A stretch of DNA of 52,570 nt from Pseudomonadota bacterium (GTDB lineage: Bacteria > Pseudomonadota > Alphaproteobacteria > Rhodospirillales > 2-02-FULL-58-16), in the NCBI GenBank assembly GCA_022545455.1, contig JACZQZ010000003.1, positions 1 through 52,570 on the forward strand, written 5' to 3'. A program made the translations under genes and the position numbers. The notes beneath the pieces were generated by a model. The model saw nothing but the letters and a program-made list of their open reading frames with translations, did no database searches and was not told the origin of the DNA. Shown one piece after another: positions 1 to 24,855 of the stretch; position 1 is the stretch's first letter, and every line of letters begins with the position of its first letter.

Positions 1-82
1 GCCATCGCCGGCGCCTCCCCTCCTGCCGAGGAAACGGGAAATGCGATCGTATGGGTGCACTTTAGCTGATGCAGGCCACTGT
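1..82 (+). repeat. Partial (right end) copy of the 270-bp four-way-junction intergenic element
   Basis: Nearly identical to 19759-19840 (gccatcgcc..cctcccctcctgccgaggaaacgggaaa.gcgatcgta.gggtgcactttagctgat.caggccact); truncated by the window start. Confidence 0.9.
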
Positions 83-3611: not shown

Positions 3612-3848
3612 ATAATACCAAGGAGCGCTGATCATGATGCATAGAGATCGCGTAGGCGGCTCGTCGGGCAGGAGGAAAGGTGCAGGCGATGCGGCGCATC
3701 GTCAAAACTTTTCGACGCCCTCCGACGGGCCGCATACGCGACCGGAACGGCGGCTTACCAAGGTTTTCGGACGGCGTCGCGCACGCTCCTAGCCGAAAAC
3801 CTTGGTAAGCAGTCTCTATGGGTCATGATCAGCGTTCCTTGGTATTGG
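3612..3848 (-). repeat. Four-way-junction element, 237-bp copy with shortened arm 1
   Basis: 36-bp imperfect TIRs ataataccaaggagcgctgatcatgatgcatagaga / tctctatgggtcatgatcagcgttccttggtattgg; internal gggcagg and ctcctagccg motifs as in other copies. Confidence 0.88.
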
Positions 3849-7446: not shown

Positions 7447-8133
7447 TTGCTGAAAATCGTCTTCGTACGCATCAACCGTGCCGGCTGGCCGTTCATCGGA
7501 CTCTTCGCCGCCGCTTCCGTGGGCCTGGCGTACGTTGCCCCGGCGGCGGGGTGGATCGGCGCCCTCCTGACCGCCTGGTGCATATATTTCTTCCGCGATC
7601 CCGACCGGGTGACGCCGACCCGCCAGGGGCTGATCGTCAGCCCCGCCGATGGCGTCGTGCAACTGATCGACCAGGCGCCGCCGCCCTCGGAGCTGGGGAT
7701 GGGAGATCAGCCCCGCACGCGGATCGCCATCTTCATGAGCGCGTTCGACGTCCATGTGAACCGCATCCCGTGTGACGGCGTCATCACCGGCCTGGCGTAC
7801 AGGCCGGGAAAGTTCTTCAACGCCTCGCTCGATAAATCCAGCGAGTTCAACGAGCGCCAAGCCGTGCGCCTGACGACCCCGGACGGCCACGACATCGCCT
7901 TCGTCCAGATTGCCGGCCTGATCGCCCGGCGCATCCAGTGCGAGCTCGCCAAAGGCCAGGAAGTGCGCGCCGGCATGCGTTTCGGCCTCATACGCTTTGG
8001 CAGCCGCGTCGACGTGTACCTGCCGGACGGCGTGGCGCCACTGGTCGCCCTCGGGCACAAAACGGTGAGCGGGGAAACCGTCATCGCCGATGTCCGCGCC
8101 CAGGAGCCGGCACGCGACGGCGAAGTCCGCTAA
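7447..8133 (+). CDS. psd: Phosphatidylserine decarboxylase
   Basis: YFFRDPDR, SPADG, IFMS.FDVHVNR, FGLIRFGSRVD self-cleavage motif. Confidence 0.96.
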   Translation: MLKIVFVRINRAGWPFIGLFAAASVGLAYVAPAAGWIGALLTAWCIYFFRDPDRVTPTRQGLIVSPADGVVQLIDQAPPPSELGMGDQPRTRIAIFMSAFDVHVNRIPCDGVITGLAYRPGKFFNASLDKSSEFNERQAVRLTTPDGHDIAFVQIAGLIARRIQCELAKGQEVRAGMRFGLIRFGSRVDVYLPDGVAPLVALGHKTVSGETVIADVRAQEPARDGEVR

Positions 8134-8399
8134 TGGTAAGAATCCAACATATGGTGCCCATAGGACGGCTTTCCGAGTTCGTCCGGCTAGGCGCGGGACG
8201 CGCGGTGATGCTGGCGCATCACACGCGTCGCGCAACGACGCCGGCGGGCTCGGAAAGCCGCCCTATGGGTCGCCTATCCCGCTTCCTCGGGGCGTCAAGC
8301 GCGCTTACCGATGCGACAGCATCGCCGCCGCACGCTTTCCTGCCGAGGAAACGGGATAGGCGATCCTATGGGTACCATATGTTGGATTCTTACCACTAG
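8130..8399 (+). repeat. 270-bp four-way-junction element between psd and pssA
   Basis: 36-bp TIRs ctaatggtaagaatccaacatatggtgcccatagga / tcctatgggtaccatatgttggattcttaccactag; arm 1, ccctatggg hairpin, arm 2. Confidence 0.92.
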
Positions 8400-17489: not shown

Positions 17490-17759
17490 CCAGTACCCTC
17501 TATCACAATAGGATGGTACGTGTGATCGTCTTTTCGCGTCTTTTGGGCAGGAAGCGTCGCGCTGGCGATGCGAGGCATCGTCAAGCGGCGCTGACGTCCC
17601 CAAAAGGCGCGAAAAGCGACCCTTCGGGCGGCCATGGGCGGCCATCGGACGTCGTCACGCGGCTCTCGTGATGCGCCGCATCACTTCGAACCACGCTCCT
17701 AGCCGAATGGCCGCCCATGGCCGTCACACGTGTCATCCTATTGTGATAGAGGGTACAAG
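17490..17759 (-). repeat. 270-bp four-way-junction element (reverse orientation)
   Basis: 36-bp TIRs ccagtaccctctatcacaataggatggtacgtgtga / tcacacgtgtcatcctattgtgatagagggtacaag; central cccttcggg; gggcagg and ctcctagccg motifs. Confidence 0.92.
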
Positions 17760-18663: not shown

Positions 18664-19548
18664 ATGACCGCGTCATTCCATGGTTTGTCCGTCCCACCCG
18701 AGCAAAGCCTGTCCCATTACCTTAAGGAAATCCGCAAATTCCCCATGCTGCACGCCGACGAGGAGTTGAGACTCGCCCGGCGCTGGACCAGGTACGAAGA
18801 CACCAAGTCGGCCAACAAGCTGGTGAACAGCCACCTGCGCCTGGTGGCCAAGATCGCCATGGGGTACCGGGGATACGGCCTGCCCTTGGGGGAGCTCATA
18901 TCGGAAGGCAACGTGGGCCTGATGCAGGCGGTCAAGCGGTTCGATCCCGAACGCGGGTTCCGCTTTTCCACCTACGCCATGTGGTGGATCCGCGCCGCCA
19001 TCCAGGAATATATCCTGCACTCGTGGTCGCTGGTGAAGATGGGGACGACGGCGGCGCAGAAGAAGTTGTTTTTCAACCTGCGCAAGCTCAAGAACCGAAT
19101 CCAGATCATCGAGGACGGCGAACTGGCTCCCGAGCACGTGACCAGTTTCGCCAAGCACCTGAAGGTGTCGGAAGACGAGGTGATCAGCATGAACCGCCGC
19201 CTGTTGAAACCCGATCACTCCCTCAACACCCCCGTGTACGATGACGGCGAACGGGAATGGCTGGAGGAGCTGGTGGACGAATGCGACGACCACGAAACCG
19301 TGCTCGCCGAACGTCAGGAGCTTGGCGACCGGCGCCGGCTTCTGGCGCGGGCGATGAAAACCCTGAACGACCGCGAGCGCAATATCCTCACCGAGCGCCG
19401 CCTCAAGGAAAAACGCACCACGCTGGAAGGCTTGAGCCGGACGCACAGCATCTCGCGCGAACGGGTGCGCCAGATCGAGATGCGCGCCTTCGACAAGGTG
19501 CAGAAGTCCGTGCGCAACGCCTCCCTCCAGCAACGGCTGCCCGCGTGA
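18664..19548 (+). CDS. rpoH: RNA polymerase sigma-32 factor
   Basis: HLRLVAKIAMGYRGYGLP, YAMWWIRA.IQEYIL.SWSLVK, RpoH box QKKLFFNLR, ISRERVRQIE. Confidence 0.95.
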   Translation: MTASFHGLSVPPEQSLSHYLKEIRKFPMLHADEELRLARRWTRYEDTKSANKLVNSHLRLVAKIAMGYRGYGLPLGELISEGNVGLMQAVKRFDPERGFRFSTYAMWWIRAAIQEYILHSWSLVKMGTTAAQKKLFFNLRKLKNRIQIIEDGELAPEHVTSFAKHLKVSEDEVISMNRRLLKPDHSLNTPVYDDGEREWLEELVDECDDHETVLAERQELGDRRRLLARAMKTLNDRERNILTERRLKEKRTTLEGLSRTHSISRERVRQIEMRAFDKVQKSVRNASLQQRLPA

Positions 19549-19570
19549 GCGCACCGGCCGGCCCCACACC

Positions 19571-19840
19571 CTAGTGGCCTTTATCAGCTAAATTGCGCCC
19601 CTACGACGGCGTTGCGAGGTTTCCGGCTAGGAGCGCGTCGCGCCTTGGTGTGCGTGCACCACAAGCGGCGCGCGACGACGTCCGGAAGCCTCGCAACGCC
19701 GCCCTTCGGGTCGCTTTTCCCGTCCCCTCGGGGCGTCGGGAAGGCTTGCCGATGGGCCGCCATCGCCCGCGCCTCCCCTCCTGCCGAGGAAACGGGAAAA
19801 GCGATCGTAGGGGTGCACTTTAGCTGATACAGGCCACTAG
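19571..19840 (+). repeat. 270-bp four-way-junction element downstream of rpoH
   Basis: 36-bp TIRs ctagtggcctttatcagctaaattgcgcccctacga / tcgtaggggtgcactttagctgatacaggccactag; arm 1, cccttcggg, arm 2. Confidence 0.93.
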
Positions 19841-19844
19841 CCAC

Positions 19845-19885
19845 TTGACTCAGGTCAAGGACTCCAGCCGCCAATTCGATAAGAT
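19845..19885 (+). promoter_or_regulatory. FNR/FixK-type box with class II promoter geometry
   Basis: Palindrome TTGAC-TCAG-GTCAA (19845-19858); TAAGAT -10-like hexamer at 19880-19885. Confidence 0.65.
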
Positions 19886-19891
19886 TCGAGC

Positions 19892-19994
19892 CACTCGGGG
19901 GTCAATCCCAAATACCCGGTTCTCCGGGTTCATTACCCTCTAAACGTCATGTTTCCCTGTAAATCTCGCGGGGCCTTAGGCCCCGCTTTTTTTT
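19892..19994 (+). ncRNA. Candidate small regulatory RNA (~100 nt)
   Basis: ORF-free stretch between the FNR-type promoter and an intrinsic terminator; hairpin cccgg-tttct-ccggg; C/U-rich single-stranded segments. Confidence 0.55.
19968..19994 (+). terminator. Rho-independent terminator
   Basis: gcggggcc-tta-ggccccgc followed by T8. Confidence 0.85.
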
Positions 19995-20018
19995 GTCATG
20001 ACGGGTCGTGAAAAGCCG

Positions 20019-24616: not shown

Positions 24617-24855
24617 TCATCTTAAGGGACATCGCCGGCGCCCTGTTTTCGGGTTATCCGTGTCGTTACCCGAAGGCTTCAAGGGCGCCTATCCTTCCCG
24701 ACAGGGCGGCACTATCCCGATGCGCCGTTGTCATGTCATCTTAAGGGACATCACCGGCGCCCTTTTTTTCGGGTTATCCGTGGTGTTTCCCGAAGGCGTC
24801 AGGGGCGCCTATCCTTCCGGATAGGGGGGCACTATCCCGATGCGCCATTGCCTTG
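24617..24855. repeat. Tandem ~119-bp structured direct repeat (2 copies)
   Basis: tcatcttaagggacatc.ccggcgccct..ttcgggttatccgtg...cccgaaggc.tca.gggcgcctatccttcc.ga.aggg.ggcactatcccgatgcgcc starting at 24617 and 24736. Confidence 0.9.

What the first reader, a model, noticed from the sequence alone, without database searches (positions are those of the whole stretch)
19607..19804. The element's two arms carry a related internal-loop motif on opposite strands, pointing to DNA-level function
Seen: arm 1 reads stem(20-21 bp)-CTAGG...GACG(T/C)C-stem on the top strand. Arm 2, read on the bottom strand, gives stem(21-22 bp)-CAGGA...GACG(C/T)C-stem (top strand gcgtc...tcctgcc). This holds in all four complete copies, and each intact arm ends in a short distal hairpin (cgatg..catcg, gtgatg..catcac). 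Inference: each DNA strand displays one correctly oriented motif arm about two helical turns from the junction. This pseudo-dyad suits a cruciform or ssDNA substrate bound by a dimeric protein better than a strand-specific RNA.
Basis: partly seen in the sequence, partly recalled or inferred. Interest (0 to 1): 0.72.

Follow-up and report, generated by a model that had tools for sequence, protein, structure and literature searches.

The report
Mirror-image hairpin arms of a mini-transposon
The two hairpin arms are the mirror-image halves of a 264-base non-coding jumping element (a MITE moved by an IS630-type transposase) that litters this marine bacterium's genome, and each arm folds best on its own DNA strand, an unusual detail in an otherwise ordinary genomic parasite.

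Summary
Window 19574-19837 is a 264-bp MITE flanked by a duplicated TA. It has 33-bp terminal inverted repeats, two about 95-nt hairpin arms and a small central hairpin.

There are 196 related loci in the 2.76-Mb assembly. The family was found in 24 of 41 related genomes, in subfamilies with unrelated terminal repeats but a conserved core. Congeners have empty sites. One congener carries an intact IS630-family insertion sequence with nearly the same terminal repeats.

Arm 2 read on the bottom strand is collinear with arm 1 read on the top strand. The shared loop motif is therefore one sign of whole-half homology.

G-T versus A-C mismatches are mirrored: arm 1 is 116:11 on the top strand, arm 2 is 17:134, and the terminal repeats are 32:41. 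A single-strand RNA spanning both arms is thus not the selected form.

Still open is whether the arms act as DNA hairpins during mobilisation (my choice, about 0.45), as RNA hairpins on transcripts reading in from either side, or not at all.

This is a new variant of a known kind. The scan has met this 264-bp family before on other DNA.

The parts
19572..19573 (.). left copy of the duplicated target TA (within CTAG 19571-19574)
   Evidence: sequence. A clean empty site for a sister copy in the window shows TA duplication. TA lies on both sides in 29 of 48 copies, on one side in 15 and on neither in 4.
19574..19606 (+). left terminal inverted repeat (subfamily A)
   Evidence: Pairs with 19805-19837. 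About 22-23 of the first 25 bases match the ends of an IS630-family IS in a congener (alignment A2).
19607..19701 (+). arm 1: 21-bp proximal stem, asymmetric internal loop, distal stem and apical hairpin; folds best on the top strand
   Evidence: Compensatory changes in 14 of 21 proximal and 9 of 10 distal pairs. Top strand more stable in 17 of 21 representatives. G-T 116 versus A-C 11.
19627..19633 (+). arm 1 5' loop motif CTAGGAG; its CTAG is itself an IS630-type target
   Evidence: Profile CGGC-T-AGGAG, with AGG invariant in 48 of 48. In a congener an IS630-family IS sits in exactly this CTAG.
19674..19682 (+). arm 1 3' loop motif GACGACGTC
19702..19710 (.). central mini-hairpin CCC-TTC-GGG at the dyad centre
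   Evidence: Helix 5: 3 pairs, 99.3% paired, loop variable.
19711..19804 (-). arm 2: same architecture as arm 1 when read on the bottom strand; folds best on the bottom strand
   Evidence: Bottom strand more stable in 20 of 21 representatives. Top-strand G-T 17 versus A-C 134. Compensatory changes in 9 of 12, 4 of 6 and 5 of 5 pairs of its helices.
19732..19737 (-). arm 2 motif GGCGTC on the top strand, GACGCC on the bottom strand (3' side of the loop)
19779..19783 (-). arm 2 motif TCCTG on the top strand, CAGGA on the bottom strand (5' side of the loop)
19805..19837 (-). right terminal inverted repeat
19838..19839 (.). right copy of the duplicated TA (within CTAG 19837-19840)
18664..19548 (+). 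upstream gene, an RpoH-like sigma-70-family factor; the element starts 23 nt after its stop codon
   Evidence: Pfam Sigma70_r2, r4 and r1_2. ORF list.
19968..19996 (+). terminator-like hairpin plus T run downstream, which would place this copy inside the sigma-factor gene's 3' untranslated region
   Evidence: This is a consensus match only, and one such site is about what shuffles give.
17490..17759 (-). sister copy, subfamily C (different terminal repeats and stems, same core)
   Evidence: Absent at the orthologous site in two congeners.
8130..8399 (+). sister copy, subfamily E
   Evidence: Clean empty site in two congeners: CCGG-TA-GGAGG versus CCGC-TA-[element]-TA-GGAGG.
3612..3848 (-). sister copy, subfamily D with a shortened arm 1
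   Evidence: Absent in two congeners.
1..80 (+). right end of a further subfamily A copy, cut by the contig start

Best explanation
The stretch is the interior of a 264-bp non-autonomous transposon. It is a MITE that duplicates TA, prefers CTAG targets, and is mobilised in trans by an IS630/Tc1-mariner-type transposase.

The element is built from two inverted, homologous half-units. Each half is a 33-bp terminal repeat followed by an imperfect hairpin of about 95 nt. Each hairpin has the same asymmetric internal loop (CGGC(T)AGGAG ... CGACGYC) and the same kind of apical hairpin. The 'same motif on opposite strands' is therefore the element's two-fold end symmetry extending about 130 nt inwards. 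It is not a separate device.

Shown:
- mobility and TA duplication
- an IS630-family partner for the terminal repeats of this subfamily
- conservation of the core across subfamilies whose terminal repeats differ
- heavy compensatory change in the stems
- a mirrored strand preference, with each arm pairing best on the strand that runs 5'->3' inwards from its own end

Inferred, and my committed reading: the arms matter at the DNA level for the element's spread. They would act as single-stranded hairpins on the 5'-ended, non-transferred strand of each end, or otherwise while the DNA is transiently single-stranded. There they could present the conserved loop and/or bring the two terminal repeats together for the transposase. 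They would not be a strand-specific RNA gene.

The confidence given (0.45) is for the whole statement including this inferred step. The identity as an IS630-type MITE with inverted homologous halves I put at about 0.9.
For: Copy number and spread:
- 196 merged loci on 123 of 191 contigs, 1.46% of the assembly. A family hit lies within 300 nt of 102 of 382 contig ends.
- Found in 24 of 41 related genomes, including 13 of 14 from the same family.

Mobility:
- Orthologous empty sites in congeners for three window copies, one of them clean: single TA versus TA-element-TA.
- The site after the sigma-factor gene is empty in one congener and holds a different subfamily in another.

Target:
- TA on both sides in 29 of 48 copies, on one side in 15, on neither in 4.
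- C before the left TA in 40 of 48 and G after the right TA in 34 of 48.

Partner:
- An intact 1232-bp IS in a congener, with ORFs matching NCBIfam 'IS630 family transposase' (150 bits, cut-off 100), DDE_3 and HTH_32. Its ends match the subfamily A terminal repeats.
- ISY100 abstract (PMC2170065): this family duplicates TA, cuts exactly at the 3' ends and cuts 2 nt inside the 5' ends.

Structure:
- 96.2% of cells paired against 81.0% in shuffles (0 of 500 shuffles reach it).
- 75 of 100 pairs show compensatory change.
- Slid controls give 36-43% paired.

Half-unit homology. The family profile also matches the same loci in both orientations.

Core more conserved than terminal repeats: 66-95% against 43-70% identity between subfamily consensuses. 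B1 versus B2 is 95% against 63%.

Mirrored strand preference:
- Pair list taken symmetrically from both strands: arm 1 G-T 116, A-C 11; arm 2 G-T 17, A-C 134; terminal repeats 32 and 41.
- On 21 representatives: 55:6, 6:68 and 21:20.
- Columns with any G-T versus any A-C: 21 versus 9 in arm 1, 7 versus 21 in arm 2 (Fisher p = 0.0008).
- Folding energies: arm 1 is better on the top strand in 17 of 21, arm 2 on the bottom strand in 20 of 21, with RNA or DNA parameters.

Other:
- No orientation bias towards neighbouring genes: 18 same and 12 opposite in tandem contexts, on crude gene calls.
- No Rfam family.
- No reading frame stays open.
Against: - The autonomous IS has no arms. Only about 15 and 57 nt separate its ORFs from its ends. 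The transposase therefore does not need the arms.
- A 40-bp arm-less palindrome of the terminal repeats exists in a congener.
- IS630/Tc1-mariner transposition has no known single-stranded stage. This rests on established knowledge and on the ISY100 abstract only.
- The strand bias is carried mostly by variants shared among copies. Counting each private variant once in the own genome gives arm 1 G-T 10, A-C 9 and arm 2 G-T 4, A-C 10. This is the same direction but not significant, so a mutational or historical origin is not excluded.
- Sequences in the alignment are related, so the p-values overstate.
- A partner IS was found for subfamily A only.
- This particular copy lies in a probable 3' untranslated region, and RNA-library contigs cover the family. 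An RNA role therefore remains possible.
Confidence: 0.45

Rival explanations
1. Bidirectional RNA module. The arms act as RNA hairpins on transcripts that read into the element from the flanking genes, as 3'-end stabilisers, processing sites, terminators or insulators. The element cannot choose its orientation, so each half carries the well-folding version on the strand that an incoming polymerase copies first. That would give the mirrored G-U tolerance.
For: - The mirrored bias fits inward-reading RNA as well as DNA.
- The difference between strands is larger with RNA parameters: -7.0 and +11.4 kcal/mol, against -1.8 and +3.2 with DNA parameters.
- This copy lies between the sigma-factor gene's stop codon and a terminator-like site.
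- Many copies abut the ends of ORFs.
- Contigs from four RNA libraries of three studies cover the element.
- A conserved unpaired AGG(A/C)G sits in each loop.
- Bacterial MITEs and REPs are often proposed to act as RNA: abstract and section 14 of PMC3733652, and the listing of PMC2229807.
Against: - Each arm is about -50 to -60 kcal/mol on either strand, so one wobble more or less should hardly matter for an RNA hairpin.
- 13 copies lie between divergent genes, where nothing reads in, against 7 between convergent genes (crude calls).
- Private mutations show little bias, so individual copies do not seem to be held by selection.
- The RNA libraries were available as contigs only: no strand and no ends, DNA carry-over is possible, and depth is summed over hundreds of copies.
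- Closeness to stop codons is expected anyway, because TA is rare in a 66.7% G+C genome.
Confidence: 0.27
2. No present function. The arms are a relic of how the element arose, by inverted duplication of one end carrying a hairpin. They would be kept paired by DNA-level processes that need no selection, such as template switching within quasi-palindromes and gene conversion among hundreds of copies. The strand bias would be inherited from the ancestor or produced by an element-intrinsic mutational asymmetry.
For: - The mirrored features are homologous between the halves. An example is the T-G at half-unit position 50 in six of seven subfamilies and its mirror C-A in arm 2 in all seven.
- Unique private events are nearly unbiased.
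- There is a hint of excess C>T on the inward strand in the terminal repeats too: 16 against 6 unique events.
- Cores and terminal repeats are reshuffled between subfamilies, as gene conversion would do.
- The IS needs no arms.
Against: - Loop motifs and total length (268-271 nt in the profile frame) are more conserved than the stems and the terminal repeats, across several bacterial families. Unselected processes do not predict this.
- G-T and A-C columns are spread over 21 and 21 different pair columns, not a few inherited sites.
- Paired positions differ from their subfamily consensus less often than unpaired ones: 3.0% against 7.3%.
Confidence: 0.23
3. REP/REPIN-like unit. The two arms are a head-to-head dimer of REP-type palindromes, with CGTC tags as in Alphaproteobacteria, moved or used by a tyrosine (RAYT/HUH) enzyme on single-stranded DNA. 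The outer inverted repeat would merely be the palindrome the dimer sits in.
For: - A CGTC tetranucleotide borders the distal palindrome of each arm, on opposite strands.
- CGTC-tagged REPs are mainly alphaproteobacterial, mostly head-to-head dimers, and sometimes embedded in longer palindromes (PMC3733652, sections 6, 7 and 14).
- HUH enzymes act on folded single strands, which would explain a strand bias.
Against: - The defining features given in that paper are not met: 8-9-bp stem starting with A-T pairs, 4-5-nt loop, CCA tail, 20-40 bp overall.
- No Y1_Tnp match in the own genome, which is 92.6% complete.
- The element has terminal inverted repeats, a TA duplication and a matching IS630-family IS.
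Confidence: 0.05

Closest known systems
IS630/Tc1-mariner-family insertion sequences and their bacterial MITEs (ISY100 is the biochemical reference; RUP of Streptococcus pneumoniae is recalled from memory)
   Same: Short non-coding element with terminal inverted repeats that resemble those of an IS630-family IS. TA duplication with CTAG preference, many copies, and presence/absence differences between close relatives (PMC2170065 abstract).
   Different: - It has a constant-length, conserved three-way-junction core: two sub-terminal hairpin arms plus a central mini-hairpin. This core is absent from the IS and shared by subfamilies with unrelated terminal repeats.
- The arms show a mirrored strand preference. 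I did not find this described in the three literature searches I ran.
Correia elements (CREE/NEMIS) of Neisseria (recalled from memory, not read here)
   Same: TA-flanked MITE with inverted ends that forms a strong hairpin, sits next to genes and is co-transcribed.
   Different: - Correia elements fold through their terminal repeats into one hairpin and are about 100-155 bp. Here the interior folds into two independent arms.
- No RNase III or IHF evidence was obtained here.
REP / BIME / REPIN repeats, including CGTC-tagged REP dimers of Alphaproteobacteria (Di Nocera et al. 2013, PMC3733652; abstract and sections 6, 7 and 14 read)
   Same: Imperfect palindromes paired in opposite orientation, so that each strand shows one unit the 'right way round'. 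A CGTC next to a palindrome. Alphaproteobacterial host. Intergenic location.
   Different: - The arms are about 95 nt with a 21-bp stem and a large internal loop, not 20-40 bp with an 8-9-bp stem, 4-5-nt loop and CCA tail.
- The element has terminal inverted repeats and a TA duplication.
- No RAYT was found.
IR/DR-type ends of Tc1-like transposons such as Sleeping Beauty (recalled from memory)
   Same: Conserved sequence blocks lie well inside each end, in inverted orientation, in addition to the terminal binding site.
   Different: - There the inner blocks are second transposase-binding sites that resemble the outer ones.
- Here the inner motifs do not resemble the terminal repeat, lie in hairpin loops and are missing from the autonomous IS.
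Earlier reports of this scan on 264-265-bp MITEs of uncultured Alphaproteobacteria (e1-2399483, e1-2485051, e1-2082788)
   Same: Same length once the TA copies are excluded (264 bp), the same CTAG/TA target and the same IS630-type assignment. They share short words with this copy.
   Different: Those reports dealt with single insertions and their effects on neighbouring genes. The half-unit homology and the strand test are new here. I did not compare those sequences directly.

Membership tests
MITE of the IS630/Tc1-mariner type | short, non-coding, no transposase gene | tested here: met
   264 bp. No frame is open in more than 7 of 55 sequences. Nothing but the repeat lies between the ends.
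MITE of the IS630/Tc1-mariner type | terminal inverted repeats | tested here: met
   33-bp repeats. 32 pair columns, 94.9% of cells complementary.
MITE of the IS630/Tc1-mariner type | duplication of a TA target | tested here: met
   Clean empty versus filled site for the window copy at 8130-8399. TA on both sides in 29 of 48 copies, on one side in 15, on neither in 4. Subfamily D departs from this: its flanks look like a 3-bp TWA duplication, with identical 3-mers in 16 of 31.
MITE of the IS630/Tc1-mariner type | many copies, with insertion polymorphism between close relatives | tested here: met
   196 loci. Three window copies are missing at orthologous sites in congeners.
MITE of the IS630/Tc1-mariner type | an autonomous IS of the family with matching terminal repeats | tested here: met
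   Met for subfamily A only: the IS at L152:1251-2482 in a congener. None was found in the own assembly. None was found for the other subfamilies among the loci examined.
MITE of the IS630/Tc1-mariner type | actual mobilisation by that transposase | not testable with these tools
   Needs a transposition assay.
REP / REPIN (RAYT-associated), CGTC-tagged type | 20-40-bp palindrome with an unpaired CGTC head, 8-9-bp stem, 4-5-nt loop and CCA tail | tested here: not met
   The arm anatomy does not match the description in PMC3733652 section 6.
REP / REPIN (RAYT-associated), CGTC-tagged type | associated tyrosine (Y1/RAYT) transposase | tested here: not met
   No PF01797 match in the own genome, which is 92.6% complete, so absence is not proven. 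The paper itself says CGTC REPs lack a known transposase.
Described structured RNA family (Rfam 15) | match to a covariance model at its gathering score | tested here: not met
   0 matches in the window. With the relaxed search only chance-level microRNA and IRES hits appeared, E 2-10.
Strand-specific structured RNA spanning both arms | G-U tolerated and A-C avoided on one and the same strand in both arms | tested here: not met
   The bias is opposite in the two arms.

The most novel reading that the evidence does not exclude
The conserved two-arm core would be a portable, strand-specific hairpin cassette that has been fitted repeatedly with the terminal repeats of different transposases. These include several IS630 lineages and, in subfamily D, perhaps an enzyme that makes 3-bp TWA duplications. 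The cassette would itself raise mobilisation: each end's non-transferred (5'-ended) strand folds into a hairpin that shows a conserved loop to the transposase or to a host factor. This would be a single-strand step not known for Tc1-mariner/IS630 transposition.
Probability: 0.15. Interest if true: 0.72.

Novelty: new variant of a known kind. Interest (0 to 1): 0.42.

Why it matters
MITEs are usually treated as terminal repeats plus filler. In this family the 'filler' is the most conserved part. It keeps its length, its three-way-junction shape and its loop motifs across several bacterial families, while stems and terminal repeats turn over. Its two hairpins each prefer a different DNA strand.

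If that preference reflects selection, it points to a single-stranded step, DNA or read-in RNA, in the life of an IS630-type element. That step could be tested with simple transposition and reporter assays.

On the practical side, the family explains much of the fragmentation of this and related marine-sediment assemblies: a hit lies within 300 nt of 102 of 382 contig ends. It also marks many intergenic 'structured RNA' candidates in this group as transposon copies.

Tried and rejected
- **Rfam.** The gathering-threshold search of the whole window and the relaxed search of 19450-19950 gave nothing meaningful.
- **Pairwise alignment of the arms.** Global alignment of arm 1 with arm 2 of this copy, in either orientation, was not significant: z = -0.83 direct, 0.89 inverted. 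The homology shows only in register and at profile level.
- **Coding potential.** No frame is consistently open.
- **Partner in the own genome.** There is no DDE_3 and no DDE_Tnp_4 match, and only a 60-position fragment of DDE_Tnp_1. No pairs of terminal repeats lie at IS-like spacing.
- **RAYT.** None found in the own genome.
- **Partner for subfamily D.** Among 27 DDE_Tnp_1 loci of relatives, the only matches to D's terminal repeat were MITE copies lying nearby.
- **Orientation against neighbouring genes.** There was no significant bias (18 versus 12). Gene calls were crude stop-to-stop ORFs filtered by third-position G+C.
- **RNA evidence.** The four RNA libraries were available only as assembled contigs. 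They cover the element at high summed depth, but they give no strand, ends or level, and they may hold DNA. This does not show transcription of this copy.
- **Private-variant test.** The first count looked strongly biased. Most of that signal came from variants shared by descent. Counted once each, it is weak.
- **CGTC-REP lead.** The defining anatomy is not met.
- **Ideas set aside without a test.**
  - Outward promoters from the CTTGAC in the arms: no -10 element, and 0 promoter-like sites.
  - Short ORFs starting at the ATG/GTG of the apical stem: that position co-varies with its pairing partner, A-U 25 and G-C 22.
- **Not attempted.** No protein complex or structure prediction was run, because no protein claim is made.
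Full report
**What is there.**

- The element proper runs from 19574 to 19837 (264 bp). It is flanked by TA on each side (19572-19573 and 19838-19839), each within a CTAG.
- Its outer 33 bp are terminal inverted repeats.
- Inside lie arm 1 (19607-19701), a 9-nt central hairpin CCC-TTC-GGG (19702-19710) and arm 2 (19711-19804).
- Either strand folds into the same Y shape at about -193 kcal/mol, against -120 to -127 for shuffles (z about -13.6).
- It starts 23 nt after the stop codon of an RpoH-like sigma-factor gene at 18664-19548. It lies upstream of a terminator-like hairpin with a T run at 19968-19996. That is a consensus match only.

Arm 1 on the top strand reads 21-bp stem, CTAGGAG, distal stem and apical hairpin, GACGACGTC, stem. 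Arm 2 on the bottom strand reads stem, CAGGAGG, distal part with CGATGG..CCATCG, GACGCC, stem.

- The four complete window copies (3612-3848, 8130-8399, 17490-17759 and 19571-19840 in profile coordinates) belong to four subfamilies with quite different stems and terminal repeats. All show the motif pair.
- The 5' motif GGY(N)AGG is on the arm 1 top strand in 47 of 48 copies from at least 11 genomes, and on the arm 2 bottom strand in 45 of 48. It is on the opposite strands in 0 of 48.
- Among 58 full copies in the own genome the figures are 37, 57 and 0. The arm 1 misses are mostly subfamily D, which reads GGCCCTAAG.
- The likeness is not confined to the loops. The left halves (top strand) and right halves (bottom strand) of seven subfamily consensuses align collinearly over about 135 nt.
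- A profile made from arm 1 alone finds arm 2 on the minus strand in 36 of 48 copies, best E = 0.0011 over nearly the full length. On the plus strand it finds 3 of 48, best E = 1.5.
- A simple global alignment of the two arms of this one copy is not significant.

**It is a mobile element.**

- A profile of six subfamilies gives 309 hits, many loci being hit in both orientations. They merge into 196 loci on 123 of 191 contigs, 1.46% of the assembly. A hit lies within 300 nt of 102 of 382 contig ends.
- A DNA search found the family in 24 of 41 related genomes, 13 of 14 in the same family and patchily across the order.
- Comparison with three congeners gave orthologous sites without the element for three window copies.
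- For the copy at 8130-8399 the pair is clean: CCGG-TA-GGAGG when empty, and CCGC-TA-[element]-TA-GGAGG when filled.
- The site after the sigma-factor gene is unoccupied in one congener. In another, and in a related public MAG, it holds a different subfamily plus a remnant of a third, so it is a hot spot.
- Over 48 copies, TA lies on both sides in 29, on one side in 15 and on neither in 4. C precedes in 40 and G follows in 34, which makes the preferred target CTAG.

**Partner.**

- The own assembly (92.6% complete) has no DDE_3 or DDE_Tnp_4 match.
- A congener has an intact 1232-bp insertion sequence (L152:1251-2482). Its two overlapping ORFs match NCBIfam 'IS630 family transposase' (150 bits against a cut-off of 100, plus the N-terminal part), DDE_3 and HTH_32.
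- Its ends share about 22-23 of the first 25 bases with the subfamily A terminal repeats.
- The IS has no room for arms, so the arms are specific to the MITE.
- No partner was found for the other subfamilies among the loci I looked at.

**A conserved core with changing ends.**

- Seven subfamily consensuses from the own genome are all 269-271 nt in the profile frame and fold alike.
- Between subfamilies the core is 66-95% identical and the terminal repeats 43-70%. B1 versus B2 is 95% against 63%.
- I aligned 48 full copies: 3 from the window and 45 distinct ones out of 50 retrieved from relatives. Five duplicates were dropped. The window copy with the shortened arm was left out, and subfamily D is under-represented.
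- In that alignment, 96.2% of cells form standard pairs against 81.0% in shuffles (0 of 500 shuffles reach it). 75 of 100 pairs show compensatory change. Sliding the partners by 1-3 columns gives 36-43% paired.
- The loop motifs, the apical stems and the junctions GACGG and CGATC are invariant or nearly so.

I took the pair list symmetrically from the consensus structures of both strands and counted mismatches on the top strand.

| Region | G-T : A-C, all 48 | G-T : A-C, 21 representatives at 85% identity | Columns with any G-T versus any A-C |
|---|---|---|---|
| Arm 1 | 116 : 11 | 55 : 6 | 21 versus 9 of 36 |
| Arm 2 | 17 : 134 | 6 : 68 | 7 versus 21 of 36 |
| Terminal repeats | 32 : 41 | 21 : 20 | 16 versus 16 of 32 |

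- Fisher's test on the columns, arm 1 against arm 2, gives p = 0.0008.
- Pairs predicted only on the top strand lie in arm 1 (11 of 12). Pairs predicted only on the bottom strand lie in arm 2 (7 of 8).
- Folding each arm separately on both strands agrees. Arm 1 is more stable on the top strand in 17 of 21 representatives, by a mean of -7.0 kcal/mol with RNA parameters and -1.8 with DNA parameters.
- Arm 2 is more stable on the bottom strand in 20 of 21, by +11.4 and +3.2. The whole element is about balanced.
- Each arm therefore pairs best on the strand that runs 5'->3' inwards from its own end.

**Limits of that test.**

- The sequences are related, so the p-values overstate.
- Within the own genome, deviations from the subfamily consensus looked biased when every copy was counted: arm 1 31:11, arm 2 6:20, terminal repeats 37:42, over 53 copies of five subfamilies.
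- Counting each variant once leaves 10:9, 4:10 and 15:23. The bias therefore lives mainly in variants that spread with lineages, or it is inherited. Recent single mutations are close to unbiased.
- That pattern is what selection on spreading lineages would give. A column-level contrast is not significant, so a historical or mutational origin stays open.
- A cruciform with both strands extruded cannot explain a strand bias. G-T is the best-tolerated mismatch in DNA as well as in RNA, so the test does not separate ssDNA from RNA.

**What it most likely does.** The identity is firm, about 0.9 in my judgement: an IS630-type MITE whose two halves are inverted homologues. This explains the 'motif on opposite strands' without any extra assumption. 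For the arms there are three readings.

- *DNA-level aid to mobilisation (my choice, about 0.45).* The favoured strand at each end is the 5'-ended, non-transferred strand. The bias is carried by lineages that spread. Orientation towards genes is random: 18 same and 12 opposite, with 13 divergent and 7 convergent contexts, on crude gene calls. Against it, the IS needs no arms, and no single-stranded stage is known for this transposase family.
- *RNA hairpins on transcripts reading in from either side (about 0.27).* This also fits the mirrored bias and suits this copy, which lies in a probable 3' untranslated region. Contigs from four RNA libraries cover the family, but without strand, ends or proof of transcription.
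- *No present function (about 0.23).* The arms would be a relic kept paired by template switching and gene conversion. The greater conservation of loops and length argues against this.
- A REP/RAYT-type reading is disfavoured (about 0.05). The anatomy described for CGTC-tagged REPs in PMC3733652 (abstract and sections 6, 7 and 14 read) is not met, and no Y1 transposase was found.

**Known or new.** The kind is known: bacterial MITEs of IS630 type.

- Three full-text searches turned up no description of this family or of a mirrored strand preference. That is a limited search and not proof of absence.
- I saw the MITE review PMC2229807 and a bioRxiv MITE survey only as listings.
- The scan itself has met 264-265-bp CTAG/TA MITEs of uncultured Alphaproteobacteria before, as well as related 'constant core, changing paired arms' elements.
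- I rate this a new variant of a known kind, of moderate interest.

Noticed in passing
G000 contig C28:9417-9560 and many others; partly seen in window-family copies (e.g. C122:23600-23777): A second repeat: G+C-rich units of about 51-59 nt (GGGGGGACACCCCCC hairpins) in tandem. They often replace the stretch between arm 1's 3' GACGYC and arm 2's 5' GGCGTC, which gives 330-400-nt multi-arm variants. There are 69 BLAST hits, 42 within 120 nt of a MITE hit and 30 within 150 nt of a contig end.
   Followed up: partly
L111:1-242 (congener G001, contig C171): An IS630-family IS has inserted into the CTAG of the arm 1 loop of the element downstream of the sigma-factor gene. Several copies in the own genome also break at that position (profile hits starting at position 58-59). 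The conserved loop CTAG is thus a recurrent landing site.
   Followed up: partly
window 19560-19575 / 19838-19860; L093, L094, L011: The spot after the sigma-factor gene is an insertion hot spot. It holds subfamily A here, and subfamily D plus a remnant of a B1 terminal repeat in another congener and in a public MAG. It is empty in a third genome. One RNA-library contig joins 19572 to 19829 with 8 other letters between, an empty-site allele in the environment.
   Followed up: partly
subfamily D copies, e.g. window 3612-3848 and 30 others in G000: The flanks of subfamily D look like a 3-bp TWA duplication: TAA/TAA 11 times, TTA/TTA 4 times, TGA/TGA once, 16 of 31 identical. The window copy and its empty site, however, fit a 2-bp TA. 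A different transposase family may move this subfamily. No partner was found.
   Followed up: partly
L220:792-831 and 696-794 (congener G001): There is a 40-bp perfect palindrome made only of two subfamily-A-like terminal repeat ends, with no core. Next to it is a 99-bp CTAG-bounded mini-element.
   Followed up: no
window 19841-19996: About 150 nt lie between the element and the terminator-like hairpin. They are conserved in congeners and contain small hairpins (TTGACTCAGGTCAA and others). This could be the native 3' untranslated region or a small RNA. There was no Rfam match.
   Followed up: no
window 24641-24735 and 24761-24855; 645-710 and 814-879: Two further pairs of nearby direct repeats (95 nt at 86% identity and 66 nt at 79%) that are unrelated to the MITE.
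   Followed up: no
whole assembly: The organism is an uncultured Rhodospirillales-like alphaproteobacterium with 66.7% G+C. Its sigma-factor locus is held at 0.89 or more of sampled words by 14 DNA or unclassified runs labelled marine or marine-sediment metagenomes from several studies.
   Followed up: no
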